Part shown: positions 1,985-39,607 of the stretch, piece after piece | Position numbering within the stretch: the first letter of the stretch is position 1 | How the letters are laid out: each line of letters starts with the position of its first letter | Assembly: GCA_037439845.1 (NCBI GenBank) | Contig: JBBIVF010000001.1 | Span: 1,842 to 65,841, forward strand | DNA length: 64,000 nt | Origin: Candidatus Woesearchaeota archaeon | GTDB lineage: Archaea; Nanobdellota; Nanobdellia; Woesearchaeales; JBBIVF01 | Direction: 5' to 3' | Position numbers and translations under genes: made by a program | Notes under the pieces: model-generated | Seen by the model: the letters and a program-made list of their open reading frames with translations, nothing else | The model's database searches: none | What the model was told of the DNA's origin: nothing

Positions 1985-2248
1985 ATGATGGAAGAAGGCA
2001 AATTATTATCTAAGGCACTGATTGGCAAGACTATTGTTTCTAAAACAGGCAAAAAATTTGGTGAAATAGGAGATATAATCTTTGAAACAAGAACAGGAGA
2101 GCTCATTCACCTGGTTGTTGTTAATCCTACTGAATACATCTCTAGGCTAGAGCTTGAGAAGGATAAAGGCGGAGCTTATCTTGTGCCTTATTCTAGTGTT
2201 ATGGCAATAGGAGATTTCGTAGTGATTGCTGAAGAAGATATCATTTAA
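1985..2248 (+). CDS. PRC-barrel domain protein
   Basis: 87 aa. The GKTIVSKTGKKFGEIGDIIFETRTGELIHLVV pattern is typical of small archaeal PRC-barrel proteins. Confidence 0.45.
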   Translation: MMEEGKLLSKALIGKTIVSKTGKKFGEIGDIIFETRTGELIHLVVVNPTEYISRLELEKDKGGAYLVPYSSVMAIGDFVVIAEEDII

Positions 2249-2323
2249 TTATTTTTTTAATATTTAATCTTTTAATTTCTTAAAAGATAATCTATTTATA
2301 GTACAAATTTATTGTGAAATAAA

Positions 2324-3277
2324 ATGGAACATTCGATCTGGACAGAAAAATATAGGCCATCAGAATTCTCTGAAATCATTGGCCAAAAAGATGTTGTCTC
2401 TCGCGTAAAAGCATTTGTTGAGCACAAGAATATGCCTCATTTGCTTTTTACTGGTCCTGCTGGCGTAGGCAAGACTACTTTAGCAATTGTTGTCGCGAAA
2501 AAACTTTTTGGAGAAAATTGGAGAGGAAATTTCCTTGAACTAAATGCTTCTGATGAAAGAGGTATTGAGGTTATCAGGGTAAAAGTGAAAGATTTTGCCA
2601 GAACAAGAAGCATTGGAGATGTGCCTTTCAAAATAATTTATCTTGATGAGTGTGATGCTCTTACAAAAGAAGCCCAACAAGCTCTCAGAAGAACAATGGA
2701 AAATTTTACCCAGACCTGTAGATTCATATTATCTGCGAATTATTCCTCCAAAATCATTGAACCCATACAATCAAGATGCGCTATTTTCAGGTTCAAGCCT
2801 TTGTTGAAAGATGATGTTTTTGAAATTATCGAAAGAATCGCAAAAAATGAAAAACTTTCTATTGACAAAGACGCTAAAGATGCTTTGTATGAAGCCTGTG
2901 AAGGCGACCTCAGAAAATTAGAGAACATAATGCAAGCATGCGCTTCACTCGGAAAAAGCATATATGCTGAAAATGTTTTCTCAATGGCTGCAATGGCAAG
3001 GCCAAAAGAGGTCAAAGAGGTTCTTGAGCTTGCTGTGAAAGGAGATTTTGTAAAAGCAAGAGCAAAATTAATAGATACAATGCTCACTTATGGAATTTCA
3101 GGTCTTGACATGATTAAACAAATACAAAAACATATTCTAGACATTAATATAGACAAGCACAAGAAAATGGAGCTTATAGATTATTGTGGTGAAATAGAGT
3201 TTAGAATGACCGAGGGCTCTGACGAATACTTACAGCTAGACTGCCTGCTGGCAAGAATGGGTGTTGCGGGTAAATAA
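2324..3277 (+). CDS. rfcS: Replication factor C small subunit
   Basis: Walker A GPAGVGKTT, DEAD-like LDECDAL, SRC motif SRCAIFRF, and an N-terminal EKYRP box. 317 aa, no intein. Confidence 0.9.
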   Translation: MEHSIWTEKYRPSEFSEIIGQKDVVSRVKAFVEHKNMPHLLFTGPAGVGKTTLAIVVAKKLFGENWRGNFLELNASDERGIEVIRVKVKDFARTRSIGDVPFKIIYLDECDALTKEAQQALRRTMENFTQTCRFILSANYSSKIIEPIQSRCAIFRFKPLLKDDVFEIIERIAKNEKLSIDKDAKDALYEACEGDLRKLENIMQACASLGKSIYAENVFSMAAMARPKEVKEVLELAVKGDFVKARAKLIDTMLTYGISGLDMIKQIQKHILDINIDKHKKMELIDYCGEIEFRMTEGSDEYLQLDCLLARMGVAGK

Positions 3278-3319
3278 TAAATAAAAAGAGAAAATTAAAA
3301 AGAAAAAATAAATCAAAAT

Positions 3320-4309
3320 TTATTGAGCTGAAACATCTCTTATTTCTAAAGAGGTCTGTGCTCTGTCAAGATATTTGTAGATGAGCTCAATATCAAGTTG
3401 ATGCTCAAACTTGCCCTTGATACCTGAGACATCCAGAGTGCATGAAACTTTTCTTGGAGCTACTGCTCTTGACTCTGTTTCAAATAACTGCACATATCCT
3501 TCAGAAGAACTTGCTGATACTCCTTGCAATCCTGAACAAACTGGTTTTCTCCCATTTAGCTCAGAAGTTATTTTTAGATATACCTTGTTTCTTTCTGGAT
3601 TTGTTACAACATCATCGCAGACTGATTCTGTATATTTGAAGATGCGTCCATTACCCACATGCTCAATGTCAAATGTGAACTGCAGCTTGTCCTGTCCTAG
3701 CGGCTCTTGTCTGAAATTGGTAATGTGTATGGGAGATTTAGATGATTTTGCATCTTTGTAGCCTGAGATCTTGCAGATAGTTTCATCAGACACTATTGCA
3801 TCCAGCAAATTTTCCTTCACACACACCAATGTTGAGGTATATGTAATGTAATTATAGCAAATATCTACTGCTATTGTAGTTTGAGTGTTGCCTCTTATAT
3901 TTCTCTGGTAATTAAGGTTTGGGAATTCAATAACATCTTGGTCTCCTGGAAGTATTGTACCATCAAAATTCTTTGTTGCGCCTTTTAGAGCCGGCAGAGG
4001 TTTCTTAAGGTCTGCTGATGAAACGCCCCAGTCAGAAGGATTTATTCCTGAAAGCTCAACATATCCATCTGCTGCTCCTTTAATATCTGCTTCGCCATTA
4101 TTTGTTATCTTTAATCCTATTCCAAATGGATAGCCTTTATTATCAAAAACATATGGCGGCGGCATACCTGGCATGAATTCCAATGAAAGTCCACCAACTC
4201 CGCCAATAAATGGTTCTGTTGAACCTGTTTGTGTTTCTTGTTTTCCACAACCGAAAATTGTTATAACAACTATTAAGAGAGCCAATATCACAAAAAATTT
4301 CTTATTCAT
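3320..4309 (-). CDS. Secreted lipoprotein, paralog 1 of 3 of an unknown Cys-containing family
   Basis: Signal peptide plus lipobox (IFGCGKQ). Shares GLSLEFMPGMPPPYVF and DICYNYITYTSTLVCV motifs with the two upstream paralogs. Confidence 0.6.
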   Translation of the reverse strand: MNKKFFVILALLIVVITIFGCGKQETQTGSTEPFIGGVGGLSLEFMPGMPPPYVFDNKGYPFGIGLKITNNGEADIKGAADGYVELSGINPSDWGVSSADLKKPLPALKGATKNFDGTILPGDQDVIEFPNLNYQRNIRGNTQTTIAVDICYNYITYTSTLVCVKENLLDAIVSDETICKISGYKDAKSSKSPIHITNFRQEPLGQDKLQFTFDIEHVGNGRIFKYTESVCDDVVTNPERNKVYLKITSELNGRKPVCSGLQGVSASSSEGYVQLFETESRAVAPRKVSCTLDVSGIKGKFEHQLDIELIYKYLDRAQTSLEIRDVSAQ

Positions 4310-4334
4310 CTAAACACCTCCTTTCCTAAGTCAA

Positions 4335-5462
4335 TTAATTTTGTAATATCCTTAATGATCCTTGTATGGAATCATAATAACCATATCCTAGCACTATTCT
4401 TATTGGAGTTTCATAAGCAGATAATCCTTTTGCAGCGTCAGGAACGCAAACAATAGGACTTCCTCCATAAACGTAATTTGTAGTAAATGGGTTTGTTGGT
4501 GGTGCTAAACCCGTGCCTTTGTTTCCATGACAAAATTCACAAGTAATTACTGCTTCATTATTTATCAGCCGTATTTCACCTTCTGGAGTAAGCGGTCTGC
4601 AGGTTTGAGTTATTTCTATGTTTGAAACATAAACAGACGATAACCTGACTTTATTGATATCTTCATAATCAAAATCAGGACATATTTTCTCTCCTTTTAT
4701 AGATTCGACGAGAGAATATGGGAATCCTCTGCCAAGATTCCTTATGTATATCCTAAACTTGGTTTTTGAGGATGTTGTCTCTTGTTCTATTCTTGTTATA
4801 GCAATAGGTGCTGCCTGAGAAGTTAATGTAACATCATGAGGTGAGCATATTTCATTCTCAATACGCTGTGTAAATGGATCTGGATCTATGCATACAGAGG
4901 GATTTGCATAAGTCACATATTTATAGCAAACCTCTACTTTATACTTCTGCTCCATTGAGGTAGGTATTCCTCTTAAATCTGCTTTGGCTTTTATTGTCAT
5001 CAGCTCAGAGTTGCCTAAAGAATTGTATGGGTCTTTTCCATACAGATCAGGCGCGATTGTGCAGCCTGTACTTTCTGGTCTTGGATCGCAGAGATTGTTT
5101 GAATAATCATAACCTTGGAATATTGGGAAATATGTTGTATCTAATCCTGAAACATATAATTTTGCTTCTAATGGAAGTTCAATCATCATTCCACCAAAGA
5201 GATCTTTTGTATATTCATTTGGAAATCCTCCTCTATTATAAACTTCTATCAAAAACTCAAACTCATCTCCATTATAGACCACTGCAGGCGGAGCATTAGG
5301 CAAAAGCCTTAATGTCAGACCCTCAGTGCCTGTTAGATAGGCTGTGCTTGATCTTTTTGCACTGCTTCTATCTTTGCCACAAGAAAACCCAAACATTAGA
5401 AGAGTTAATAAGATACAAAATAACATGAGCTTTGTGGATTTTTCCATTATATATCTTTTCAT
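4335..5462 (-). CDS. Secreted lipoprotein, paralog 2 of 3
   Basis: Signal peptide with GFSCGKD lipobox. Motifs GLTLRLLPNAPPAVVY and VEVCYKYVTYANPSVCIDPD. Confidence 0.6.
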   Translation of the reverse strand: MKRYIMEKSTKLMLFCILLTLLMFGFSCGKDRSSAKRSSTAYLTGTEGLTLRLLPNAPPAVVYNGDEFEFLIEVYNRGGFPNEYTKDLFGGMMIELPLEAKLYVSGLDTTYFPIFQGYDYSNNLCDPRPESTGCTIAPDLYGKDPYNSLGNSELMTIKAKADLRGIPTSMEQKYKVEVCYKYVTYANPSVCIDPDPFTQRIENEICSPHDVTLTSQAAPIAITRIEQETTSSKTKFRIYIRNLGRGFPYSLVESIKGEKICPDFDYEDINKVRLSSVYVSNIEITQTCRPLTPEGEIRLINNEAVITCEFCHGNKGTGLAPPTNPFTTNYVYGGSPIVCVPDAAKGLSAYETPIRIVLGYGYYDSIQGSLRILQN

Positions 5463-5595
5463 TATAAGCTATCTTTAAAAAATAGTATATTTAAACTTTT
5501 CTAAAATGATATTTAAAGTTTACTGTTAAAATTTACTGCTTAGAATAAAAGAGTTTTTGACGATAAAAAATATTTAGTATTGTTGAGTGATAAAG

Positions 5596-6585
5596 TTAAC
5601 TAGGAATCTTTGTTATTCTTGTTCCTGTTGTCCAGGTTTGGGTATAACCATAATCGAATTTTACTATTAAAGGAGAAAGGAAAGACCTTCTTGAGGCAAG
5701 CTCATTTTCCTGAAAACGTTCTGTCCAGCATCTTGTCTTGCCTATATTGTCCTTTATCAAAATATCCTGAGGAGAACAAATTAGTGGCTTGCCCATAAAT
5801 GTGCCATTGAAATGCACAATGTTTATTGTAGACCTGTTGATTGGTTGATTTGAACATGCTTTTTGGATGTCATATATATTCAAAACAGTACCTTCTGCAT
5901 AATTTGTTAATTCAATATAAAATTCTGGCCTGTATGTTGTGTCCCAAGGCAATATTCTTACATCTATCAATGAAACTCCAATAGGTGCGCCTTGACCTGA
6001 AAATTTAAGGGGTTGAAATTCACACACTCCTTTTGTTACTTTAGTAGAATCTGCTGAATCCAAATTCACGCAAATATCAGCAACAAGATATGTAGAGTAA
6101 TCATAGCATGCAGTCACTCTGAACTTCACATCATGATAAAAAGAAAGATTTTCTAATTTTTTTGTCTGAAATCTGAGTATTGCTGTTTCTTCCTGGCCTT
6201 TTTTCTCATATAATGTCTTTCCTGCCAAAGAAAAAGGAACCAATTTGTCTTTTGTTATTGGGGTTTTGGCATAGGTGCCATTATTGAAGATCACATAATC
6301 TTTTTCTGTACCAATACCGAAATATCCGTTTGTTATGTTGAATGCTCCTATGTTTTCTAAATCGAATATTAACTGTATTTCCTGTTGTTCCATAACTTCT
6401 TCTGGAGGTGCATTTGGCATAAAATTCAATTCCAAACCTCCTTTTCCTGAATACAATTGTTTTATCATTCTATCAATTTCTGTAGGAGAAAGAATTGTAT
6501 CTTTTTTTTGGCATGAGCTAAGAATAAGTAAGCTAATTATCAATGCTAGGATTATTGCTTTTTTTATTATTTTCTGATTAATCAT
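5596..6585 (-). CDS. Secreted lipoprotein, paralog 3 of 3
   Basis: Signal peptide with LSSCQKK lipobox. Motifs GGLELNFMPNAPPEEV and VTACYDYSTYLVADICVNLD. Confidence 0.6.
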   Translation of the reverse strand: MINQKIIKKAIILALIISLLILSSCQKKDTILSPTEIDRMIKQLYSGKGGLELNFMPNAPPEEVMEQQEIQLIFDLENIGAFNITNGYFGIGTEKDYVIFNNGTYAKTPITKDKLVPFSLAGKTLYEKKGQEETAILRFQTKKLENLSFYHDVKFRVTACYDYSTYLVADICVNLDSADSTKVTKGVCEFQPLKFSGQGAPIGVSLIDVRILPWDTTYRPEFYIELTNYAEGTVLNIYDIQKACSNQPINRSTINIVHFNGTFMGKPLICSPQDILIKDNIGKTRCWTERFQENELASRRSFLSPLIVKFDYGYTQTWTTGTRITKIPS

Positions 6586-6601: not shown

Positions 6602-9580
6602 TTATCTTGTTAATATATCTTGTGGAGTGCCTGTGCCATCATAAATATCTTTACCTAACTCAATCGGGTCTGACTTTTCTGATGCATAGGATATTTCTCC
6701 TGGAGGTTGATTGAGATTAAAGTATGTTCTAATATAATAACAATATTGCTGCTTTTGTAATGAGATTGGAGGACTTAGTGGATACTCGTATTTATCTTTT
6801 CCTAAAGGTGTTATTGATACTGACCTTAATTTATTATTGTCATTGCACAAGAACTCAATAATTTCATATTTTTTTACAATCTCAGGATATTCTTTCTCTA
6901 TTTCATTTGGCTGGAAAGAAATTATTAACTTATTGGCTGAAGTGTTCATAAACACAGTGGGTTTAGATGTGCTTAAGCCTGTATGGGTCGTTCCTAAGGT
7001 TATATTCATTTCTTCTGAATCATTGAAATTGTTTTGTGAATCTATAGCTCTTACCTTATAAGTATATGTACCTGAAAATTTCTCTACACCTATGTATGCG
7101 TATGTCTTATCATAAGGAATATCTGCCACAAATTGGAAATCCTCCATAATATTTGATCTTTTCCTGTATATCTTATATCTAATGTCTTTCTGGTCAATAG
7201 TATGAGGATTCCATGCTAATGCGAGCACAAGTCCTGCGTCTTTTATGTCTTTGAGCATTGTGATTTCTGGCTGAGGTGGAGGTGTAATATCCCATTTTCC
7301 TGCCTCTAGTTCATTTTTACACTTTTGATAATTAGGATATATTTTATTAATATGATTTTTTGTTTCTGGTGGAAGAGAACATTTAGATATACTGCAGGTT
7401 GTTGCATCACAACAGTACTTCATCACATTCCCTATACCCCAATTATATGCTGCCAGCATTAGTTTTATTCTCTCTTCAGGATCTGTAATTCTGTTTTTGA
7501 TTTTTTCTTCTAATTGCATAATCAGCCAATTATAATAAAACATTCCTCCGCCTATGTTAGAGTATGGCAAAAATCTTGAATCTATTTCTGGTAACTGCTG
7601 AGGTGCTATTGAATTTTTAAGTTCCTTTAATTCTTTGACATAATTTGAATCAGGAGAATTGCCTTTGTAATCTTTAAAGAATTTGGTTAATCCTGGTGAA
7701 GGCTTAGCAGACTTTTCCATGTCATATGCTGTACCTGGCATAAGTTGCAAAAGACCTACTGCTCCTTTATTAGAAATAGCGCAAGGATCTCCTGCAGATT
7801 CTTGTAGAATAGAGGCTATTGCTAAACATCTTGGAATTCCTGACTGCTGTTCCCAAAAGTCAATTTCTTTTTTATAGTCGGCATAGATACATTTAAGAAG
7901 ATTCTTGCTTGGACATTCTTCTTTCTTGCCGCATTTAACGAATGCATCTCCAATAGTTGAAACAAACAAAGGCTGCTTTTCTTCACCTGCTATACCTAAT
8001 GTCTCGTCCTTAATAGTTACAACAAATGCCTTGTCTAACTCATAAACATACGATATTGAGGCCTTGATATATCTAACTGTGAGAGGATTGTCTGGCTCCA
8101 TTATATTAGGGTCTATTTTAACTTGACACCTGAATGACTTGAAGTTCTTTATTTCTCTCAAATTTGATACAGAAACATTATATTCATTCACATCAGATTC
8201 CTGGCTTGAGACGAGCAGAGGTTCGAAGAAACAATTTTCTTTTACGAATTCTATCTCTTTTGGCAAAATCAATTTTAAAGATGTGATGTTGATTATTTTG
8301 CCATCTGGCCCCCATTCATTATCTATTGTAATTCCAAATTGAGCAAATGTGACAGGCGCATCTTGAGATTGCTTGACTTCAATCAAGGAAGGTCTCATTT
8401 CCATTCCTATGCTGATTGGTCCTTGGGTATAGATTGCTATTGGCTCTCTTGGTTCTATTTGATATTCTACATATGGATCTATATTCTGAGATTTTAATGT
8501 TCTTACTCTTTCAAAATCAATGAGATTTATCTGAAAGTAAGAGAATGTATCGAAATTGAATGTTGATGTGAAGTGCACTCTGTAAGAGCCAGGGTCTGAA
8601 TTGTACTGGCTTGGGCTGAACCTGCAGTTTATTGTTTCTTCGCCATAATTATAAATTGAGACACTTTTTGGAAATACTCTGTCTGCTTCTACTTTACTTC
8701 CTGAATATTCTATATAGCAATTATTAGTGATATTTATTTCTTGGTTTGAAAGCGTCCTTGCGCTCAATGTTGCCCAGACATCTACATCTTCATCAGAGTA
8801 GAACTCATCTGTTGCTCTTGAGAGGTCTTCAAGTTTTACTCCTAAAGGTGCATCTTTGTTTTCTTCTACTTGACCTATGTAATAATCAGATGTCGCGATC
8901 TGATATTGCTTATCCCAGAAATTTTTTATCGATGTTTTTGTTTCGGAAGTAAGTAAAGCTATGTTTGCCATCCACTTTCCAATTTCTTTTGTTGCAATAG
9001 AAGGGTTCATAATGAATTTGACTACTGACCTCGAGAGTGACAATGTGGACTGCGTCAAGAAAGCAATACCAGCTATCAATACAAGCACAACTAATATTAT
9101 CAAGAAAACCTTTATTATCGAGCCCAATGATGTGCCAACTCCTGAATGAGTTTCTATCTCTATTTTTGTTTCACCTGGTTTGGGGTGAAGTTTTTTTTCT
9201 CTTCTATGTGCAATGAATACAAACAAAAGCCAGAAAGGAAAAATGTCTATCTCAAAAAAACCACCTATACCTTCTATAGCCATGGCCAACCAGCTACTAT
9301 TTCCTATCACAGGTCTTAGCAAAAACCCACCAACAATATCGAATATTGCGCTTGCTGCTGAACCAAAACCCCAAAAAAGACTTAATAATGATAAAAGATC
9401 AAGGATTAATGCATAGACATAAGCCATTGTCCAGTTCCTTTTTGGTGCTTCTCCTGCTGTTGCGGATTTTGAAAGCAAACCTGCCTTATTTGACATCTTG
9501 TTTAGAGCATCTGCTATCTTGTCCATTGCACTTGCTGATTTAGAAGCAGAATCTTTTTTGAAAAAATTCTTTAAGCCCAT
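6602..9580 (-). CDS. Large multi-pass membrane protein with a lytic transglycosylase (SLT) domain and a beta-rich extracellular region
   Basis: 992 aa. N-terminal hydrophobic helices (YVYALILDLLSLLSLFWGF, FPFWLLFVFIAH, IIKVFLIILVVLVLIAGIAFL). SLT signature CLAIASILQESAGDPCAISNKGAVGLLQLMPGTAYD followed by LAAYNWGIGNVMKY. Confidence 0.7.
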   Translation of the reverse strand: MGLKNFFKKDSASKSASAMDKIADALNKMSNKAGLLSKSATAGEAPKRNWTMAYVYALILDLLSLLSLFWGFGSAASAIFDIVGGFLLRPVIGNSSWLAMAIEGIGGFFEIDIFPFWLLFVFIAHRREKKLHPKPGETKIEIETHSGVGTSLGSIIKVFLIILVVLVLIAGIAFLTQSTLSLSRSVVKFIMNPSIATKEIGKWMANIALLTSETKTSIKNFWDKQYQIATSDYYIGQVEENKDAPLGVKLEDLSRATDEFYSDEDVDVWATLSARTLSNQEINITNNCYIEYSGSKVEADRVFPKSVSIYNYGEETINCRFSPSQYNSDPGSYRVHFTSTFNFDTFSYFQINLIDFERVRTLKSQNIDPYVEYQIEPREPIAIYTQGPISIGMEMRPSLIEVKQSQDAPVTFAQFGITIDNEWGPDGKIINITSLKLILPKEIEFVKENCFFEPLLVSSQESDVNEYNVSVSNLREIKNFKSFRCQVKIDPNIMEPDNPLTVRYIKASISYVYELDKAFVVTIKDETLGIAGEEKQPLFVSTIGDAFVKCGKKEECPSKNLLKCIYADYKKEIDFWEQQSGIPRCLAIASILQESAGDPCAISNKGAVGLLQLMPGTAYDMEKSAKPSPGLTKFFKDYKGNSPDSNYVKELKELKNSIAPQQLPEIDSRFLPYSNIGGGMFYYNWLIMQLEEKIKNRITDPEERIKLMLAAYNWGIGNVMKYCCDATTCSISKCSLPPETKNHINKIYPNYQKCKNELEAGKWDITPPPQPEITMLKDIKDAGLVLALAWNPHTIDQKDIRYKIYRKRSNIMEDFQFVADIPYDKTYAYIGVEKFSGTYTYKVRAIDSQNNFNDSEEMNITLGTTHTGLSTSKPTVFMNTSANKLIISFQPNEIEKEYPEIVKKYEIIEFLCNDNNKLRSVSITPLGKDKYEYPLSPPISLQKQQYCYYIRTYFNLNQPPGEISYASEKSDPIELGKDIYDGTGTPQDILTR

Positions 9581-9623: not shown

Positions 9624-10805
9624 TCATTCTATCAGTCGTATCTGTAATGTTAAAATATCAAGCCGTGTTCTTGGAACTATTTCAAGAGCATTGTTGCCTA
9701 ATCTTATGTATTGATTTATTATCTTAGAATATATTCTCTCGTCCTGATTAAGATTGGTTTCGATGCCGTTGATAATCAATTTAGCACTTTTTTGGGATTC
9801 TTCATCCACAAATTCTATGTATAATTCAATATCATATGTATTGTCAATAATACTGTTAAGTGTATCTAAGTCTATGTTGAAGAAATAAACTGGATTGACT
9901 ACTTGCTTCAGTTCATTCTTGATGACTACTTGGTCAAGCAAGAAAGTGCCTTTTGTTGCCTTGAATTCAATATAATTCTCGTTTTCCTTTAGTATCAATG
10001 GAGAGAACTCTATCAATACAGGAGATTTGCAGTCAGGCACTCCTGAAAATATCTCTTTGTCATTTATAGCAATACTCAGTGCACTCACTTCTGCTTCATT
10101 GCACTCTGGTATAAACCTTAATGCAGAGCTTTTTATGTTCTTGAGTTGTGATGATTGAATCAAAAACAGATTCTTTGAGGTTTGCTTAGAGATGTCAGTT
10201 ATGTCAGCCACTATCTTTAAGTCATTGACATCAAATTCATTTTTTAGCCAGAATCTCCACCCGACCTTATCTGTTTTGAATTTCAATGTATTCTGCTCTT
10301 TAAGCATTGCTTTCGGAAGCTCTATTGGATCAACATAGCCTTTTGTTATTCTTGCATTGAATATCTCTTTGCCATTAAGTTCAATTATCATTCTGCCTTT
10401 TGATGCTCCTACATTGAATGTCATCAATACATTATTTGTGTTAGGCAAGTCTTTTATCTCAAGACCTATGATTTTTTCATTTGTGTCAAAGAATGAATCT
10501 GAAATATAGAAAGGAGCAAAAGTCTTCAGCACTTGTGGCTCTGTGCTTGTGTATAACCTTATAGGATTCAATGCAATATTTTTTGAGGTCTCTCTTGTAA
10601 CATCAATTGTGCCTGGATGCTCTAGTAAAAGAACCTTGGCAGTAACATTTGTGTGGGGTGTTGGGGTTGTGCCTGTTGTCGGACCTAGAAGCTCTTCTCT
10701 TGCTTCAGGCGGAATGAACAAAAGATATAAAATAATTATCAAAGCTATAACAACAACCAAACTTGCTGCGCTGGTGCCAGAAGGCTGGGCTTTCTTGTTT
10801 TTCAT
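9624..10805 (-). CDS. N-terminally anchored extracellular protein, first gene of the surface cluster
   Basis: 393 aa. N-terminal KKAQPSGTSAASLVVVIALIIILYLLFIPP hydrophobic anchor followed by a Thr/Pro linker. Co-directional with 6602..9580, 43-bp gap. Confidence 0.5.
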   Translation of the reverse strand: MKNKKAQPSGTSAASLVVVIALIIILYLLFIPPEAREELLGPTTGTTPTPHTNVTAKVLLLEHPGTIDVTRETSKNIALNPIRLYTSTEPQVLKTFAPFYISDSFFDTNEKIIGLEIKDLPNTNNVLMTFNVGASKGRMIIELNGKEIFNARITKGYVDPIELPKAMLKEQNTLKFKTDKVGWRFWLKNEFDVNDLKIVADITDISKQTSKNLFLIQSSQLKNIKSSALRFIPECNEAEVSALSIAINDKEIFSGVPDCKSPVLIEFSPLILKENENYIEFKATKGTFLLDQVVIKNELKQVVNPVYFFNIDLDTLNSIIDNTYDIELYIEFVDEESQKSAKLIINGIETNLNQDERIYSKIINQYIRLGNNALEIVPRTRLDILTLQIRLIE

Positions 10806-10929
10806 AATATCATCCCTTTTTTGTTGACTTTTTTGTTGAAGAGTTATTAATATTTATAATTAATATTTATAACATATATTTATAACATGAAACATTACCT
10901 TTATATATTTAAGTTTTTCTAAAATAAGT

Positions 10930-11994
10930 ATGAAAATACTTGATTTGAATGAAAAAAAAGCATTTTTTAAGGTAAAAATCGAAAATGCGGATGATTTATG
11001 GTACTTGAGTCAATTAATCGAAAAAAATGACCTTGTTAGCGGAAAAACTGAAAGAAAAGTCAAGCTTGGAGAATCAGATGAAAGGAATGTTAAAATTATA
11101 AAAAAACCTTGTTTTTTGGAAATTGAGGTTGAGAAAATTGAGTTCTCCAAGTTCCAGAATTGGTTAAGGGTTTCTGGAAGGATAAGACAGGGGCCTGAAG
11201 ATGTGCAGAAAGGTTCATACCATACATTTAATCTTGAACCTGATGTTATTGTGAATGTGCAGAAAAAGGAATTGCTTAAATATCAAGTCCAGAGACTTCG
11301 TGAAAGTGCTGAAGAGAAAGAAATAAGAGTATTGATTGTTGTGCATGATAGGGAAGATGTGATTTTCGCGAAATTAAATTCGCAAGGATATGACTTGCTA
11401 AGCGAAAAAAAAGGAGAAGTTGAGAAGAAATTTGAGGGCTCGAAAGTTGTAGGGAATTTCTATGAGGATATAATCAAGATAATAAAAGAATATGATTCGC
11501 GTTATAATTTTCATAATATTGTAGTTGCATCGCCTGCATTCTTCAAAGATGATTTGATGAAATTATTGAAAGATGATGCGTTGAAAAAGAAAATTGTGTT
11601 AGCTACTTGCTCCACTGCAGATGAAAACGGCATTAAAGAAGTTGTGAAGAGAGCTGAGATAAAAAATGTGCTGAAGCAGAACAGGTATGCGATTGAGATT
11701 CAGTTTGTGGAGGAGGTGTTGAAAGAGATAATGAAACAGGGAGCAGTTGCATATGGCTTGAAAGAAGTCGAGAATGCAACAAATATGGGTGCAATTAAAA
11801 ATCTTCTTGTCAGCGACGAGCTGATAATGAAGATGAGAGAAGAAGAGAATTATGAAAAGCTTGAGGCTATAATGAAAAATGTAGAGTCTGCAGGCGGCGA
11901 AGTTCATATAATAAATTCTGAGCATGAAGGCGGCAAAAAATTGAATGGTTTGGGAGGAATTGCTGCCTTGCTAAGATATAAGGTTTATGAATAG
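10930..11994 (+). CDS. pelA: Pelota / aDom34 mRNA surveillance protein
   Basis: 354 aa. N-terminus MKILDLNEKKAFFKVKIENADDLWYLSQLIE. eRF1-like central and C-terminal domains. Confidence 0.85.
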   Translation: MKILDLNEKKAFFKVKIENADDLWYLSQLIEKNDLVSGKTERKVKLGESDERNVKIIKKPCFLEIEVEKIEFSKFQNWLRVSGRIRQGPEDVQKGSYHTFNLEPDVIVNVQKKELLKYQVQRLRESAEEKEIRVLIVVHDREDVIFAKLNSQGYDLLSEKKGEVEKKFEGSKVVGNFYEDIIKIIKEYDSRYNFHNIVVASPAFFKDDLMKLLKDDALKKKIVLATCSTADENGIKEVVKRAEIKNVLKQNRYAIEIQFVEEVLKEIMKQGAVAYGLKEVENATNMGAIKNLLVSDELIMKMREEENYEKLEAIMKNVESAGGEVHIINSEHEGGKKLNGLGGIAALLRYKVYE

Positions 11995-19601: not shown

Positions 19602-21135
19602 TTATTTATCCCACTTCTTTATTTCTCTTAATTGCTTGAGGTCGTTTGAGTAGAGGTCCCTTATGTCTGTTATCTGGAAGTATTCCATTAGTTGTCTGTC
19701 AAGACCAGGGCCCCATGCCAATACAGGAACCCATTCTCCTAAAAGAGGCACAACTACTTCTGGTCTGAATATGCCTGCTCCTCCGAGTTCTATCCATTTC
19801 TTATGCACAGGATGAAATACATCTATTTCAACACTGGGTTCTGTATAGGGAAAATGTGCTGGCCTGAATCTTGCCTGAGGATATCCTATTTTTTTAAAAA
19901 ATTCTTTCAAGTAGCCCAAGAGATGCCTGAAATTGGCATTCTTATCCACTACTATGCCCTCAAATTGATTAAACTCAAAAAGATGGCTCCAATCAAGTGT
20001 TTCATTCCTAAAATTCCTGCCTACTGCAAAGAATTTCTTTGGCAGGTCTTTTAATTGCAATGATGCTAATGTTCTTGCACTTAGTACTGTTGTGTGTGTC
20101 CTCAGCACATTTTTTTTTTGCTTCTTCTGGATTCCATTTATATTGCCAGCCTGTGCTTCCTGTTGTTCCGCCATTCTCATGCGCATTCTTGACTCTTTCT
20201 ACAATTTTCTTGTCTGGCAAAATGCCTTTTTCAGGATCTTTGATAAAGAATGTATCTTGCATCTCTCTCACAGGATGGTCTTGGGCTGTAAAAAGAGCAT
20301 CAAAGTTCCAAAAACTTGTTTGAGTATATGCACCATTCATTTCCTCAAAACCAAACTCTAACCAAACTCTTTTGGCATAATCTGCCACATCAAGAACAAA
20401 ATGCCTTTTTGCTCCTGTTATTTTTGGCACATTAATTTTCACATCATATCTTCTGAACTCTTTTCCTTTCCAAGAGCCTGACTTGAGCATTTCTGGAGTA
20501 ACTGCATCAATGATTTCTTTATTTTCAATCTTTTGGCTCAATAATTGTCTGCATATTTCACTGGGAATCGCGATTATTGTCCTTAGTGATGTTTTCTTAA
20601 CTATTGACCTTCTTTTTGATAATTCTGTGAAAGCAAATGTCTGTTCTGGTGTTAAGTATTTTGGATCCACAGGAGATTTAGCAAGCAGGTCAAGAAGCTC
20701 TTCTTCAAATGACCTTTTTGTCAATATCTCTCTACCATAATCAGTTATCTTTATCTTTTTGCTTTCCAAAATTTCTATTGCCATCTTCTTTTTCAGCGTG
20801 CCAATAGAAACTGCTATCTCTTGTTCATTGAGTCCTTTTTTCAAGAGCTCCTCTTGAGTCAATGCTGCTTTTTCAATAGCCTTCAGAAAAACTTTTTCTG
20901 GCAGCCCATTTTTTTGGTATCTTTTTCCATTTTCATCAAGTTCAATAAGCTCTTTCTCCTGTTTTTCTATTTTTATTATTTCCTTGTTCGAGAGCCATTG
21001 CAATGCCCTCATTACTTCTACTTCACTCAGACCTGACTTTTGCTCTAGCTCTTTGACAGAAATCTGTTTAGTGAGATAAGGTAATATTCTTCTTTCAAGA
21101 GGATGCAATGAATTAACAAGTGTTTTGATGTCCAT
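19602..21135 (-). CDS. pheS: Phenylalanyl-tRNA synthetase alpha subunit, interrupted by an apparent 1-nt frameshift at an A10 run (20110-20119)
   Basis: Track ORFs 20008..21135 (N-terminal wHTH domains up to ...WNPEEAKK) and 19602..20186 (...KKNVLRTHTTVLSARTL...FRNE...GAGIFRPEV core) overlap in different frames. Deleting one A from the A10 run gives a continuous WNPEEAKKNVLRTHTT. Confidence 0.8.
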
Positions 21136-25839: not shown

Positions 25840-26427
25840 ATGAAGTTAAATTTTAAATGCGTTTTATTATTTTTTCTTCTTCTGATTGTTATTTTCAATT
25901 TTGGCTGCAAGAGAATTAAACAAGGTGAAGAAAGCTGTGACATTGACAAGTTAATCAATGATTATGATGGAATTAATATTTATACTCTTGACCTTAGGAA
26001 GATAATTGAATGTGATATTTATGTTGTTCCTAAACTGAGCACGTATGCTGATGATCCTTCAAGAAACAAGAGATATGCTGCAATAATGGGTTTAAGCGCG
26101 ATTGCCAAAGAATATGATATGAAAGAAACTGCAGTAAGTGTATTAAAACAGAAATTGAAAGATCAGGATATTTCAATAAAAATAATTGCTTCTTCTTTGC
26201 TACTCTCTTTTGGAGAGAAAGATGGATTCGATATTCTTATAGATAATATAGACTCTGAAGAAATGCTGAGGCCAAGTGAGCCGCCAATGCCTATATCTCA
26301 GAAATGCCTTGATACATTAAGAATATACACAGGAAAAGATTTTTCAGAAAAATCAGAATGGAGCCTTTGGTATAAAGATAATAAAGAAAAATTGAAATGG
26401 AATGCGCAAGATGAAAAATTCGAATAA
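25840..26427 (+). CDS. Secreted HEAT-repeat lipoprotein
   Basis: Signal peptide with FGCKR lipobox. PBS-lyase/HEAT-like helices (DPSRNKRYAAIMGLSAI, DISIKIIASSLLLSFGE). Overlaps the next gene by 26 nt. Confidence 0.5.
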   Translation: MKLNFKCVLLFFLLLIVIFNFGCKRIKQGEESCDIDKLINDYDGINIYTLDLRKIIECDIYVVPKLSTYADDPSRNKRYAAIMGLSAIAKEYDMKETAVSVLKQKLKDQDISIKIIASSLLLSFGEKDGFDILIDNIDSEEMLRPSEPPMPISQKCLDTLRIYTGKDFSEKSEWSLWYKDNKEKLKWNAQDEKFE

Positions 26428-27937
26428 ATTTTTCATTATCGGTATTTTTGCTATTTTATTCTTGTTTTTACTTCCTAATACTTTGGCAAAAAACAGTTGC
26501 TCAAGAGATGGATGCGAGATAACCATAACAATAAATATGGTCGCGTCTGGAGGAAATCAGGAGACAATTGACAATTGGATAAATGACATAGAAGATGTGT
26601 GGAATGGTCCTGTCCAAGGAGATGGAGCTTCTCCGACATATGGAGAATGCAAATGCCCTGTCAATTTTGAGGTTAATTTCTCTGGTTTTGTTACTACGTG
26701 TAATGGCACCTCAGGAAAATATCATTGCATTGAGATAACGCCAGAAGCTGCCAAGGATGAAGCAGGAGAAACATACAGAGGATATATGGACGGTGTTTCA
26801 AATAATGGCTCTTCCCTGAGAGGATGGTGGAGTTCATCAATGATGAACACTCCTGTAAGAGTTGGTGATGAAACATTTGATACTGTTCATGATGCTGCGC
26901 ATGAAGCAGGACATATGTTGGGGTTGGATGATGACTATGACAAAGAAACAGGAAGATATGGAAATAATATAATGGGAAGAACTTGGGGAGATGATGCCAG
27001 GCCAACACAAGAGCAAATAAATAAAGCTGTTGAAAACAACTGCAAAGAAGAAGAGAGAAAATGCCCTGATGAGTGCTGCTGTCCGAATGGAAATATAGAT
27101 AAGAACAAAGATGAAGAGTGTGACCCGCTTGCATCGCCTCAAGGATGCGGAAAAAATGAAGATTGCGGTTTTGATTGTAAATGCATAAAGAGGCCTTTTT
27201 GCGGAGACGGAAACATAAGTGAAGAAATAGGAGAAGAGTGTGAGCCAGATGCAAAGCCAACTGGATGCAAAGAGGATGAAGAATGCACTGAAGAGTGTTT
27301 GTGCGAGAAAAAACAGGAGAATATTACAATAAATATTACTTCTCCACCAAACAATGCCAAGATATCAGGAGAAGAAACAGTAAGGACTGCTGTGAGCTCT
27401 GTTGAAAAGATAGAAAAAGTGAAATTCTTCCTAGATGATGAGCCGCAATACACTGATTATTCTTTGCCATACAGTTGGACTTTTGATTCTAGGTCATTTG
27501 ATCCAGGAGAATATGTATTAAAAGTTATTGCGTATAGTATTTCTGGAAATACTGCTGAAGATGAGATTGAAATAACAATAGAAGAGCAAAATGAGAGTGA
27601 TGATGGCGGAGGTGGAGGTGGTGGAAGTAACAGAGACAATATTACTGTTTGCGGTAATGGAGAGTGTGCTTTTGAGAGTGGCGAGAATTGCCTGAATTGT
27701 CCTCAAGATTGTGTGTGTGAAGGAATCTGCAATCCTGAAGACGAGATGGCTGATGAAATTGGTTGCGTATATGCTGAAATTGCTTGTGGAAATGGTTTGT
27801 GCGAACCTCAAAATTTTGAAAATTGCCTAACTTGTGTATCTGATTGTATTTGTATTCCGCCGTATTTATGCGACCCTGAGAATGCGTATGCTGATTTAAT
27901 GGGATGTTATGAGCCTTTGCCTCCTACTGCAGGCTAG
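26402..27937 (+). CDS. Secreted Cys-rich multidomain protein with a zincin-like HExxH motif
   Basis: Signal peptide. HEAGHMLGLDDDYD. Repeated Cys-rich modules (KCPDECCCPNGNIDKNKDEECDP; CGDGNISEEIGEECEPDAKPTGC; VCGNGECAFESGENCLNCPQDC; ACGNGLCEPQNFENCLTCVSDC). A beta-rich middle domain and a GGGGGGGS linker. Confidence 0.55.
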   Translation: MRKMKNSNKFFIIGIFAILFLFLLPNTLAKNSCSRDGCEITITINMVASGGNQETIDNWINDIEDVWNGPVQGDGASPTYGECKCPVNFEVNFSGFVTTCNGTSGKYHCIEITPEAAKDEAGETYRGYMDGVSNNGSSLRGWWSSSMMNTPVRVGDETFDTVHDAAHEAGHMLGLDDDYDKETGRYGNNIMGRTWGDDARPTQEQINKAVENNCKEEERKCPDECCCPNGNIDKNKDEECDPLASPQGCGKNEDCGFDCKCIKRPFCGDGNISEEIGEECEPDAKPTGCKEDEECTEECLCEKKQENITINITSPPNNAKISGEETVRTAVSSVEKIEKVKFFLDDEPQYTDYSLPYSWTFDSRSFDPGEYVLKVIAYSISGNTAEDEIEITIEEQNESDDGGGGGGGSNRDNITVCGNGECAFESGENCLNCPQDCVCEGICNPEDEMADEIGCVYAEIACGNGLCEPQNFENCLTCVSDCICIPPYLCDPENAYADLMGCYEPLPPTAG

Positions 27938-33946: not shown

Positions 33947-34030
33947 ATGCAGGGGAAGGGATTCGAACCCTCGTAAGCACTAAGCTACTGGATCTTGAGT
34001 CCAGCCCGTTTGGCCACTCCGGCACCCCTG
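33947..34030 (-). tRNA. tRNA-Leu (anticodon CAA) with a long variable arm
   Basis: The reverse complement is GCAGGGGTGCCGGAGTGGCCAAACGGGCTGGACTCAAGATCCAGTAGCTTAGTGCTTACGAGGGTTCGAATCCCTTCCCCTGCA. It has a 7-bp acceptor stem, an anticodon stem CTGGA/TCCAG, the loop CTCAAGA, a GGTTCGAATCC T-loop and a variable arm. CCA is not encoded. Confidence 0.85.
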
Positions 34031-34106
34031 CAAAAAACTCAGACAAAAACTCAAATTAGCAAAGAGGTGGTCAGAGTATTTAAAAAAGTTACTGAGAATA
34101 AATGCT

Positions 34107-38162: not shown

Positions 38163-38852
38163 ATGATAAAAATCAACAATATAGCAATTATAGGCACTTC
38201 ACATGTTTCAAGGAATTCTGTGAAAGAAATAGAAGCATTTATTGAAAAGAACAAACCTGACATTATCGCGATTGAACTTGATGCTCAGAGGTTGCAGGCA
38301 CTGATAAAGAAAAAAAAGTCAAAACCTTCATTTTCTATGATAAGAGAATTCGGCTTCAAAGGTTTTGTCTTTTTAATATTAGGTTCATTAGCCCAGAAAA
38401 TAATCGGCAAGCGATTGCAGATAATGCCTGGCTCTGATATGTATGCCGCATTTAAACAGGCAAAAAAAAATTCTCTTAAAATCGCTCTTATTGATCAGGA
38501 TATTCGCATAACCTTAAGAAGATTCTCAAAGAATTTCAAGTTCAGGGATTTTTTCTCGATGATAAAGGATTTTTTAAAAGGCATATTTATTCCGAAAAAA
38601 CAGCTGAAAAATCTAGGTTTAGACAAGCTTGCTATTGGCCAAGTTCCTGAGGATGAAGTTGTTGAAGCAATAATCAAACACATGCAAAAACATTATCCTG
38701 GCATTTACAAGAGTTTGATAGATGAACGCAATAAACTAATGGCAATAAATCTTCTTACATTACACCATAATTTTCCTGAAAAATCTATCTTGGCAGTAGT
38801 GGGAAAAGGCCATGAAAAAGGTATTATGGAAATACTCAGCAAAAACCTTTAA
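38163..38852 (+). CDS. TraB/GumN/PrgY family protein
   Basis: N-terminal IIGTSHVSRNSVKEIEAFIEKNKPDIIAIELDAQR matches the TraB-family signature (GTAHVS...VELD). Confidence 0.55.
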   Translation: MIKINNIAIIGTSHVSRNSVKEIEAFIEKNKPDIIAIELDAQRLQALIKKKKSKPSFSMIREFGFKGFVFLILGSLAQKIIGKRLQIMPGSDMYAAFKQAKKNSLKIALIDQDIRITLRRFSKNFKFRDFFSMIKDFLKGIFIPKKQLKNLGLDKLAIGQVPEDEVVEAIIKHMQKHYPGIYKSLIDERNKLMAINLLTLHHNFPEKSILAVVGKGHEKGIMEILSKNL

Positions 38853-38878
38853 ATAGTTCATTCCTTAATATAATATAG

Positions 38879-39607
38879 ATGAGTGTGTTCAGCTATTCAA
38901 TCAGGAAATATTTCACATTTTCAAAAAATGAGATTTGGGGAATTCTTCTCTCTATAATTATTTTGTCCATAATTACAGGTATAGATGATGGTAAAGAGCA
39001 GTTCATCTGGATTCAATGGCTCAATAATTTCATTTCTATTCTGCTTTTAATGAGTTTGATTATGATAGTATTTGTGACGTCAAAGAAACTGCTTGCATTG
39101 AAGCGTGGTTTTTCATGTGAATACAAACCATGGCTTTTGGGTCTTTTTTTCGGTCTTATTGTGGCATTAGTGTCAAAAGGTAAAATATGGTATTTTCTTG
39201 TTCCAGGAGGATTTGCCTTACATCACATAGTCAAGCTTAGAATTGGAAAATACAAGCCACAAGGCTCGTTTCTGGAAATGGCGATGATAGGCCTTATAGG
39301 TCCTTTGTCTGTTCTGACCTTGGCAATTTTATTCAAAATGGCAGGAGCATTCTCAACAACCAACCTTTTCTTTGAGAAGGCTATGATTATCTGTTGTGTG
39401 TTTGCAGTTGCCAATGCATTGCCTATTCCTCCATTGGACGGCTCCCATATGTTCTATGTGAGCAGAAAATCTTACATATTCTTTTTCTTCTTTTTCTTAG
39501 CTACTGCTTTGCTGATGTTCTTTTTCAATATAATAATCAGCATCATTGCGGCAATGATATTAGGAGCGATAATGATGGTGCTTTTCACCATAACAATTGA
39601 AAGATGA
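38879..39607 (+). CDS. Polytopic membrane protein, site-2-protease-like (LDG motif present, HExxH not evident)
   Basis: NALPIPPLDGSHMFY resembles the S2P N..P..LDGG motif. Several TM helices. Confidence 0.3.
   Translation: MSVFSYSIRKYFTFSKNEIWGILLSIIILSIITGIDDGKEQFIWIQWLNNFISILLLMSLIMIVFVTSKKLLALKRGFSCEYKPWLLGLFFGLIVALVSKGKIWYFLVPGGFALHHIVKLRIGKYKPQGSFLEMAMIGLIGPLSVLTLAILFKMAGAFSTTNLFFEKAMIICCVFAVANALPIPPLDGSHMFYVSRKSYIFFFFFFLATALLMFFFNIIISIIAAMILGAIMMVLFTITIER

What the first reader, a model, noticed from the sequence alone, without database searches (positions are those of the whole stretch)
3320..6585. Three tandem paralogous lipoproteins with a conserved Cys motif
The three adjacent ORFs each have a signal peptide and lipobox, the G(G)L-x-L-x-F/L-M/L-P-G/N-x-PP motif, and a conserved C-Y-x-Y-x-T-Y...C-V block. 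This indicates a local triplication of a secreted, probably disulfide-bonded, domain of unknown family. Tandem divergence of surface proteins is typical of host-interaction or antigenic functions.
Basis: seen in the sequence. Interest (0 to 1): 0.5.

Follow-up and report, generated by a model that had tools for sequence, protein, structure and literature searches.

The report
Three lipoprotein subunits, Woesearchaeota surface operon
The three neighbouring lipoprotein genes are real but ancient paralogues, and they form the fixed last three genes of a five-gene cell-surface operon in Woesearchaeota archaea whose membrane subunit often carries enzymes that cut bacterial cell walls, which makes it a concrete candidate for how these tiny archaea contact bacteria.

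Summary
ORFs 3320-4309, 4335-5462 and 5596-6585 (all minus strand) are homologous: BLASTP E 4e-6 to 1e-13, hhalign probability 99.8-100%. Each has a signal peptide and a lipobox cysteine. Six further cysteines are invariant in essentially all of 197 family members.

This is not a local or recent triplication, and it does not look like antigenic variation. The three paralogues (here called g3, g4, g5) form separate monophyletic clades and keep one order in 21 operons from different Woesearchaeota (DPANN) assemblies. They always follow g1 and g2, and the operon lies between Pelota and RFC.
- g1 is membrane-anchored, and its model shows three CBM-like jelly-roll domains.
- g2 is a polytopic membrane protein whose ectodomain looks like a fourth, distant paralogue.
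- In 8 of 21 operons g2 (once g3) is fused to a peptidoglycan hydrolase: SLT, muramidase, Amidase_2, M23 or 3D.

The family is large (2,966 clusters at 50% identity) but matches nothing in Pfam, NCBIfam, PHROGs, PADLOC or PDB sequences.

Best reading (confidence about 0.5): these are lipid-anchored, disulfide-stabilised structural subunits of a heteromeric surface complex that binds glycans and often cuts murein. Function and assembly are inferred, not shown.

The parts
3320..4309 (-). g5: lipoprotein paralogue, 329 aa, last gene of the operon. Lipobox Cys21; six invariant Cys at 151/163/179/231/258/290. It is the best conserved of the three.
   Evidence: ORF. (homology). AF2 model with pLDDT 83.1 and pTM 0.78, all-beta with strands in two groups that I read as two beta-sandwich domains. 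(Cys conservation). (monophyletic g5 clade, 28/28).
4335..5462 (-). g4: lipoprotein paralogue, 375 aa, lipobox Cys28.
   Evidence: Orthologues in L001 and L004 are 29-30% identical. Monophyletic g4 clade, 19/19.
5596..6585 (-). g3: lipoprotein paralogue, 329 aa, lipobox Cys25.
   Evidence: Monophyletic g3 clade, 16/16, sister to g4.
6602..9580 (-). g2: 992-aa membrane protein immediately upstream of g3 (16-nt gap). Its order of parts is a Lys-rich N-terminus, hydrophobic segments, a conserved ectodomain, an SLT domain and a C-terminal extension.
   Evidence: Orthologues occupy the same operon position in all complete operons. Alignment A5.
9053..9430 (-). g2 hydrophobic (transmembrane) region, aa 51-176. 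It is poorly conserved in sequence, so it looks like an anchor rather than an enzyme.
   Evidence: Read directly from the sequence and from alignment A5; Pro115 is the only invariant residue here. The topology (ectodomain outside) is inferred from the positive-inside rule.
7991..8899 (-). g2 conserved ectodomain, aa 228-530. It begins with the GDYYxGQVEEN / PLGV motif and is a probable fourth, distant paralogue of g3-g5.
   Evidence: hhalign g2 against g3: E = 1.6e-4, probability 50.5%, 186 columns. FNFxTxxY aligns with CYxYxTY, GPVxIG with GAPVxV, GITIxNxW with FxIxxxN, and the terminal YxY strands align with each other. The support is moderate and not conclusive.
7406..7921 (-). SLT (family-1 lytic transglycosylase) domain of g2, aa about 554-725. 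The sequence shows QES, GLLQLMP and AAYNWG motifs.
   Evidence: Pfam PF01464, 54.1 bits against a cut-off of 21.3, E 1.4e-14. NCBIfam lytic transglycosylase models. Motifs read from the sequence.
9624..10805 (-). g1: 393-aa first gene of the operon. It has an N-terminal [KR][KR][AG]Q motif, a hydrophobic helix and LPPxxRxxLL, followed by beta domains that I read as three CBM / galactose-binding-like jelly rolls.
10806..10929 (.). AT-rich divergent intergenic region between g1 and Pelota, with TATA-like elements. It is the presumed operon promoter.
   Evidence: Sequence. The Pelota-g1 divergent arrangement is conserved in at least 17 other genomes. Promoter function is inferred.
5463..5595 (-). 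g3-g4 intergenic region (133 nt). It contains AGAAAAGTTTAAATATA, which resembles the element upstream of g1, so it may be an internal promoter.
   Evidence: Sequence. This is inference only.
3278..3319 (-). T-rich stretch after the g5 stop codon, convergent with RFC. It resembles an archaeal terminator.
   Evidence: Sequence. This is inference only.
10930..11994 (+). Pelota, the conserved upstream synteny anchor (context only).
1985..3277 (+). PRC-barrel protein and RFC small subunit, the conserved downstream synteny anchors (context only).

Best explanation
The three ORFs are g3, g4 and g5, three anciently diverged, non-interchangeable lipoprotein subunits encoded by the last three genes of a vertically inherited five-gene operon (g1-g2-g3-g4-g5) of Woesearchaeota (DPANN, Nanoarchaeia). 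Each is exported by a Sec-type signal peptide and anchored to the outer face of the cytoplasmic membrane through its lipobox cysteine. The modelled copy (g5) is all-beta and appears to form two beta-sandwich domains. The six invariant cysteines are inferred to form three disulfides, with C151-C163 lying across a beta-hairpin. I infer that the three lipoproteins assemble with the homologous ectodomain of the polytopic membrane protein g2 into a membrane-proximal hetero-oligomeric scaffold. That scaffold would work together with g1, a membrane-anchored protein with three carbohydrate-binding-module-like jelly rolls. In many lineages, including this window, the scaffold carries a peptidoglycan hydrolase on the C-terminus of g2. 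The most likely job of the complex is therefore to bind glycan and locally cut bacterial murein at the archaeal cell surface, either for attachment to or breaching of bacterial partners or prey, or for harvesting cell-wall material. Shown: paralogy, lipobox, invariant cysteines, operon conservation, hydrolase fusions and the CBM-like fold of g1. Inferred: lipidation, disulfides, physical assembly, and peptidoglycan as the physiological target.
Confidence: 0.5

Rival explanations
1. The module is a general cell-envelope scaffold. In this reading the five proteins form a housekeeping, membrane-proximal structural layer (S-layer-like, or an S-layer anchor) needed for envelope integrity in Woesearchaeota. 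The hydrolase domains are opportunistic passengers that use g2 as a surface-display anchor.
For: The operon is located in the core genome and inherited vertically. It has a fixed stoichiometry-like gene set in 21 operons. The folds are all beta-sandwiches or jelly rolls, as in many surface-layer proteins. Most operons (13 of 21) lack any hydrolase.
Against: Five unrelated peptidoglycan-hydrolase families have been recruited to the same operon. The partner has CBM-like domains. Both suggest more than passive display. The proteins are small (about 320 aa) compared with typical S-layer proteins. No similarity to any known S-layer protein was found.
Confidence: 0.25
2. The module is a glycan or muropeptide capture and uptake system. 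The lipoproteins act as substrate-binding proteins, g1 captures polymer, g2 releases fragments, and the membrane domain of g2 (or an unlinked transporter) imports them.
For: Lipoprotein anchoring is typical of archaeal and Gram-positive solute-binding proteins (established knowledge; PMC12462473). g1 has a CBM-like fold. Hydrolase fusions are present. Woesearchaeota are metabolically reduced scavengers (PMC8204110).
Against: The g5 model is all-beta and not the alpha/beta Venus-flytrap fold of known solute-binding proteins. The operon contains no ABC ATPase or permease family. The g2 transmembrane region is poorly conserved, with one invariant residue, which is unlike a transporter.
Confidence: 0.1
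3. One reading: three independently acting, tandemly diversifying surface antigens or adhesins arose from a local triplication driven by host or immune-like pressure.
For: The lipoproteins evolve much faster than their neighbours: g5 is 31-46% identical between genomes, while the adjacent RFC is mostly 58-69% identical. Lineage-specific insertions and copy changes occur, for example an extra g3 in L026 and two g5-like copies in L010.
Against: There is 1:1 orthology, a fixed order and three monophyletic clades. The cysteines and core motifs are fully conserved. There is no sign of recent duplication, since the paralogues are only 21-25% identical.
Confidence: 0.05
4. The module assembles or exports a polysaccharide or cell-wall polymer. 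g1 would act like BcsB, guiding a nascent glycan, and the hydrolases would remodel the archaeon's own wall polymer.
Against: The operon contains no glycosyltransferase or synthase. No murein synthesis genes were seen in the window. Archaea are not known to make murein, and these hydrolase families are specific for MurNAc-containing peptidoglycan (established knowledge).
Confidence: 0.07

Closest known systems
Large extracellular SLT-domain proteins of Woesearchaeota/Pacearchaeota (fam00969, 'Module 98'; Castelle et al. 2021, PMC8204110)
   Same: g2 of this window is an SLT-domain surface protein from a Woesearchaeote. It is the kind of protein that paper proposed to bind and degrade bacterial cell walls.
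   Different: In the passages I read, that work noted the SLT domain only. It did not describe a five-gene operon, three paralogous lipoproteins, a CBM-like partner, a conserved non-catalytic ectodomain, or the alternation of SLT with amidase, muramidase, M23 and 3D domains. I did not check whether g3-g5 are among the 51 families of Module 98.
Archaeal lipobox lipoproteins (AliA/AliB-dependent, Haloferax volcanii; Hong et al. 2025, PMC12462473)
   Same: An N-terminal signal peptide followed by [LIV][ASTV][GAS]C. Such proteins are predicted to be frequent in DPANN.
   Different: There is no sequence or fold relationship to any characterised haloarchaeal lipoprotein. Export is presumably by Sec rather than Tat, since I saw no twin-arginine motif. 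Lipidation is untested, and no AliA homologue was looked for.
SpoIID-SpoIIM-SpoIIP engulfment hydrolase complex of Bacillus (from my own knowledge, not tested here)
   Same: It works alike in outline: a polytopic membrane scaffold holds a lytic transglycosylase and an amidase/endopeptidase at the membrane surface to cut peptidoglycan next to another cell.
   Different: No homology was detected between these operon proteins and any Pfam or NCBIfam family other than the SLT domain of g2. Here the hydrolase is fused to the scaffold, and the complex includes three lipoproteins and a CBM-like subunit. The organism is an archaeon without its own murein.
Membrane-anchored peptidoglycan hydrolases of monoderm conjugation/T4SS systems (VirB1-like PrgK, CwlT, TcpG; from my own knowledge)
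   Same: A transmembrane-anchored multidomain hydrolase (SLT with an amidase or peptidase) encoded with other envelope components in order to breach a wall.
   Different: The operon and its neighbourhood contain no VirB4/VirD4 ATPases and no VirB6/VirB8 homologues. It lies in the core genome and not on a mobile element.
BcsB and CBM35/CBM6/GH2 sugar-binding jelly rolls (structural neighbours of g1)
   Different: No significant sequence match was found in the PDB (E at least 0.36). The anchor is N-terminal. No ligand site was examined, and there is no cellulose synthase partner.

Membership tests
Lipobox lipoproteins (bacterial-type signal peptide II motif; archaeal AliA/AliB substrates) | An N-terminal positively charged n-region and a hydrophobic h-region, followed by [LVI][ASTVI][GAS]C | tested here: met
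   139 of 143 full-length representatives have the motif, with -3 L/I/V dominant, -2 A/S/T/V and -1 G/A/S. In the window copies C+1 and -1 (G/S/S) are canonical. Position -2 is Phe in g5 and g4, which is non-canonical.
Lipobox lipoproteins (bacterial-type signal peptide II motif; archaeal AliA/AliB substrates) | Covalent lipid on the Cys, and signal-peptide cleavage | not testable with these tools
   This needs mass spectrometry or labelling. The lipobox Cys is conserved in 99-100% of 197 sequences, which is consistent with lipidation but does not prove it.
Lipobox lipoproteins (bacterial-type signal peptide II motif; archaeal AliA/AliB substrates) | Presence of the lipidation enzyme (AliA, arCOG02177) in the genome | not tested
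   No AliA model was available. The window holds a Tiki/TraB-family protein at 38163-38852. That superfamily (arCOG02142) was reported to co-occur with archaeal lipoproteins.
Any curated protein family (Pfam-A, NCBIfam, PHROGs, PADLOC, PDB sequences) for g3-g5 | A significant profile match | tested here: not met
   There were zero hits at E up to 1 in Pfam and NCBIfam, none in PHROGs or PADLOC, and the best PDB profile hit had E 0.38. Database members are named 'hypothetical protein'.
SLT / family-1 lytic transglycosylases (PF01464), for the C-terminal part of g2 | A profile match above the gathering score, plus the catalytic E-S, GLxQ and AYNxG motifs | tested here: met
   54.1 bits against a cut-off of 21.3. 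QES, GLLQLMP and AAYNWG are read in the sequence. Enzymatic activity was not tested.
Carbohydrate-binding modules / galactose-binding-domain-like jelly rolls, for g1 | A beta-jelly-roll fold similar to known CBMs | tested here: met
Carbohydrate-binding modules / galactose-binding-domain-like jelly rolls, for g1 | A conserved ligand-binding site and demonstrated glycan binding | not tested
Type IV pilin-like proteins (class III signal peptide), for g1 | A [KR][GA] cleavage site directly followed by a hydrophobic helix, plus a linked TFF ATPase, platform protein and prepilin peptidase | tested here: inconclusive
   [KR][KR][AG]Q is nearly invariant, but 5-8 small or polar residues separate it from the helix. 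No TFF ATPase or platform gene lies in or beside any of the operons.
Type IV secretion / conjugation envelope modules | VirB4/VirD4-type ATPases and VirB6/VirB8-like components next to the hydrolase | tested here: not met
   No such Pfam families were found in the operon or its conserved flanks in the loci whose neighbouring genes were listed.
Virus- or mobile-element-derived surface proteins | Relatives in viral genomes, or a variable or island-like genomic location | tested here: not met
   No relative was found in IMG/VR. BFVD fold hits have TM at most 0.23. The Pelota/RFC synteny is conserved.

The most novel reading that the evidence does not exclude
The operon encodes a previously undescribed, lineage-defining envelope machine of Woesearchaeota. 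It would be a pseudo-symmetric hetero-oligomer of four paralogous ectodomains (g2, g3, g4, g5) held on the membrane by three lipid anchors and a helical bundle, partnered with a tri-CBM subunit. It would serve as the archaeon's contact and penetration apparatus for bacterial cell walls, which would make it the first molecular device proposed for an archaeon-on-bacterium episymbiosis or predation. The interchangeable hydrolase 'warheads' would be tuned to different host walls.
Probability: 0.3. Interest if true: 0.85.

Novelty: new variant of a known kind. Interest (0 to 1): 0.6.

Why it matters
Woesearchaeota are among the most widespread uncultured archaea. Their partners, and how they contact them, are unknown. 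SLT-domain proteins had been noted as a hint of interaction with bacteria, but only as isolated genes.

This analysis places that hydrolase inside a conserved, core-genome, five-gene surface module. The module has three obligate lipoprotein subunits, a CBM-like subunit and swappable murein hydrolases. That yields a defined set of proteins to test by multimer modelling, antibodies or cryo-ET on enrichments, peptidoglycan-binding and muralytic assays, and comparative genomics against host type.

It also adds a large family (about 3,000 clusters at 50% identity), invariant in seven cysteines, to the still small list of predicted archaeal lipoproteins outside the haloarchaea.

Tried and rejected
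1. The word-indexed homologue search with the three-protein profile found only 10 proteins, which wrongly suggested a tiny family. The exhaustive HMMER scan found 2,966 clusters.
2. The same word-indexed search with the g2 profile found only 2 proteins, probably swamped by low-complexity words.
3. The first genome-contig scan with the 11-sequence alignment failed because it had no conserved stretch. It was repeated with g5 orthologues only.
4. The afdb50 fold library was unavailable.
6. Internal duplication of the two g5 domains was tested. BLAST hinted at it (E 0.002), but hhalign of the N- against the C-domain profile was not significant (E 0.087 over 28 columns). It was left open.
7. Comparisons of g1 against g2-g5 gave no similarity.
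8. Phage, defence-system and viral-contig origins were rejected.
9. A type IV pilus or T4SS reading was rejected because no ATPase or platform gene is linked.
10. Literature searches found no description of this operon or family.
Full report
**What is in the window.** The window is a low-GC (about 33%) archaeal chromosome segment. It carries RFC small subunit, Pelota, MCM, Cdc6, PolD DP1/DP2, PCNA, Hef, RNase J, SecDF and PheRS. Record titles of the closest related loci name Candidatus Woesearchaeota or Nanoarchaeia; a few are labelled 'uncultured Methanosarcinales'. On the minus strand, five ORFs lie head to tail between the divergently transcribed Pelota (10930-11994) and the convergent RFC (2324-3277):
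- g1: 9624-10805, 393 aa.
- g2: 6602-9580, 992 aa.
- g3: 5596-6585, 329 aa.
- g4: 4335-5462, 375 aa.
- g5: 3320-4309, 329 aa.

The gaps between them are 43, 16, 133 and 25 nt. The finding concerns g3, g4 and g5.

**Check of the observation.** The three proteins are 23-25% identical, with BLASTP E of 1e-13, 4e-6 and 2e-13. When each is represented by an alignment of its orthologues, hhalign gives probability 99.8-100% (E 8e-29 to 9e-58) over about 300 columns. Each begins with a basic n-region, a hydrophobic h-region and a Cys preceded by a small residue (IFGC, GFSC, LSSC). In 197 family members the lipobox Cys and six further Cys are present in 99-100% of sequences in all three paralogue groups. 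Of 143 complete representatives, 139 carry a canonical lipobox.

**Size and annotation status of the family.** A word-indexed search found only 10 relatives. An exhaustive HMMER scan of 1.84 billion cluster representatives found 2,966 clusters at E up to 1e-3 and 892 at E up to 1e-30, most of them 300-350 aa long. None of g1, g3, g4 or g5 matches Pfam, NCBIfam, PHROGs, PADLOC or any PDB sequence. Named database members are 'hypothetical protein [Candidatus Woesearchaeota archaeon]'.

**The triplication is ancient and the genes belong to a five-gene operon.**
- I fetched genomic context for relatives from genomes and metagenomes and classified all ORFs with HMMs for g1-g5.
- The order g1-g2-g3-g4-g5 appeared in every locus with enough flanking DNA: the window plus L001, L004, L007, L008, L009, L013, L014, L017, L023, L024, L025, L026, L030 and L038-L044. 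That is 21 operons from different assemblies. In L042 the gene at the g2 position was not confirmed by my HMM.
- All-against-all BLAST shows 1:1 orthology. For example, window g5 is 44% and 32% identical to its orthologues in L001 and L004, against 21-25% for any paralogue pair.
- An NJ tree of 63 sequences recovers g3 (16), g4 (19) and g5 (28) as three monophyletic groups, with g3 and g4 as sisters.
- Pelota lies upstream of g1 in at least 17 other genomes. RFC and a PRC-barrel gene lie downstream of g5 in about 20 of the first 37 loci, and RFC lies within 4 kb downstream in six of the seven further operons.
- No relative was found in IMG/VR viral contigs.
- The module is therefore a vertically inherited core-genome element and not an island.
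- Variations exist. L026 has an extra g3 copy and L010 has two g5-like copies. In one lineage (L020, L021, L005, L022) g5 stands alone beside RFC. A distant genome (L045) has a g1 homologue followed by a single g5-like lipoprotein, which may be the state before the triplication.
- The lipoproteins evolve much faster than their neighbours: g5 is 31-46% identical between genomes, whereas RFC is mostly 58-69% identical.

**The partners.**
- *g2.* It has a Lys-rich N-terminus and several hydrophobic segments that are poorly conserved (one invariant Pro). A conserved ectodomain of about 300 aa follows, introduced by GDYYxGQVEEN-PLGV. With 14-16 sequences per profile, this ectodomain aligns to g3 over 186 columns (E 1.6e-4, probability 50.5%). 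The characteristic elements are in register: FNFxTxxY with CYxYxTY, GPVxIG with GAPVxV, GITIxNxW with FxIxxxN, plus a shared Cys and the terminal YxY strand. I take g2 to be a probable fourth paralogue that uses a helical anchor instead of a lipid, but the support is only moderate.

**The link to peptidoglycan.** In the window, g2 carries an SLT domain (54 bits; QES, GLLQLMP and AAYNWG motifs). Hydrolase domains across the 21 operons are as follows:

| Operon(s) | Protein | Domain(s) |
|---|---|---|
| window, L007, L008, L024 | g2 | SLT |
| L017 | g2 | Muramidase (PF11860) + Amidase_2 |
| L026 | g2 | Amidase_2 |
| L041 | g2 | Peptidase_M23 + weak SLT |
| L014 | g3 | 3D domain |

Eight of 21 operons therefore carry a murein hydrolase from one of five unrelated catalytic families, always appended to a conserved operon protein. 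This pattern of repeated domain recruitment is the strongest functional clue. Archaea are not known to make murein, and no murein-synthesis gene appears in the window, so the substrate is most simply bacterial peptidoglycan. That agrees with the earlier suggestion made for Woese-/Pacearchaeota SLT proteins (PMC8204110).

**Proposed mechanism.**
- *Shown:* homology, lipobox, invariant Cys, operon conservation, hydrolase fusions and the CBM-like fold of g1.
- *Inferred:* g3, g4 and g5 are Sec-exported, lipidated on the lipobox Cys and stabilised by three disulfides. This fits the report that lipoproteins and the AliA enzyme are present in DPANN (PMC12462473). The three lipoproteins then assemble with the g2 ectodomain into a membrane-proximal hetero-oligomer. 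g1 adds glycan binding, and the g2 C-terminus, where present, cuts murein.
- The complex would serve attachment to or local breaching of bacterial walls, or harvesting of wall material. I put this at about 0.5.
- The main rival (0.25) is a general envelope scaffold onto which hydrolases are merely displayed, because 13 of 21 operons have no detectable hydrolase.

**Comparison with known systems.** The module is not a member of any curated family. Its C-terminal g2 domain is a bona fide SLT domain, and g1 has a CBM-like fold. In outline the module works like membrane-held hydrolase complexes such as SpoIIDMP, or like T4SS-associated wall hydrolases. That resemblance comes from my own knowledge. 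No homology was found, and no secretion ATPases are linked. The SLT proteins themselves were already noted in the literature. The operon, the three lipoprotein subunits, the putative fourth paralogue, the CBM-like partner and the interchangeable hydrolases were not described in any paper I could find.

**Verdict.** The feature is a conserved but uncharacterised Woesearchaeota surface module. I rate it a new variant of a known kind, namely membrane-anchored cell-wall-directed surface complexes, with a substantial chance (about 0.3) of being something more distinctive. Interest is 0.6.

Noticed in passing
window 19602-21135 (minus strand): pheS (PheRS alpha) is split by a frameshift. ORF 20008-21135 carries positions 2-76 of the tRNA-synt_2d model, and the overlapping ORF 19602-20186 carries positions 77-245. 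The junction is near 20120-20223. Related genomes have a single 495-549 aa gene. This could be an assembly error, a pseudogene or programmed frameshifting.
   Followed up: partly
window 38163-39607 (plus strand): A TraB/PrgY/GumN (Tiki-superfamily) protein is followed by a weak M50-like membrane protease. A Tiki-superfamily arCOG was reported to co-occur with archaeal lipoproteins (PMC12462473), so this pair is a candidate lipoprotein-processing factor for g3-g5.
   Followed up: no
window about 10898-10920 and about 5480-5502 (minus strand): A similar AGAAAAnnTTAAATATA element lies upstream of g1 and in the 133-nt gap before g4. It may mean a BRE/TATA promoter and an internal promoter for g4-g5.
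   Followed up: no
L045 9001-11289 (GCA_964444465.1): The most distant g1 homologue (24% identity) is followed by only one lipoprotein (g5-like, 323 aa), with no g2. This may be the arrangement before the triplication, and it lies in a different neighbourhood with no Pelota or RFC.
   Followed up: partly
L020 9998-10990, and also L021, L005, L022: In one lineage g5 sits alone next to RFC, and g1-g4 are not within 10 kb upstream. Where those genes went, or whether they were lost, is unknown.
   Followed up: partly
L026 6391-11197; L010 2076-4205: Copy number varies. L026 has four lipoproteins (g3, a second g3-like copy, g4, g5), and L010 has two consecutive g5-like genes.
   Followed up: no
Representative proteins P0093, P0121, P0141, P0149, P0150, P0156, P0157: Some g5-type lipoproteins are 560-700 aa long. 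Their C-terminal extension of about 300 aa matches no Pfam family.
   Followed up: partly
window 26402-27937 (plus strand): A 511-aa protein with a bacterial Ig-like Big_7 domain. It may be another surface protein.
   Followed up: no
window 60523-64000 (plus strand): The apparent ORF-free end of the window is the PolD large subunit (DP2) running off the end. It follows Cdc6 and PolD DP1. Only one tRNA (Leu-CAA, 33947-34032) and no other Rfam family occur in the 64 kb.
   Followed up: yes
window 6605-7348 (minus strand; g2 aa about 745-992): The part of g2 C-terminal to the SLT domain, about 250 aa, has no family match. From the sequence it looks like two Fn3/Ig-like repeats, and it may be a further binding module.
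   Followed up: no
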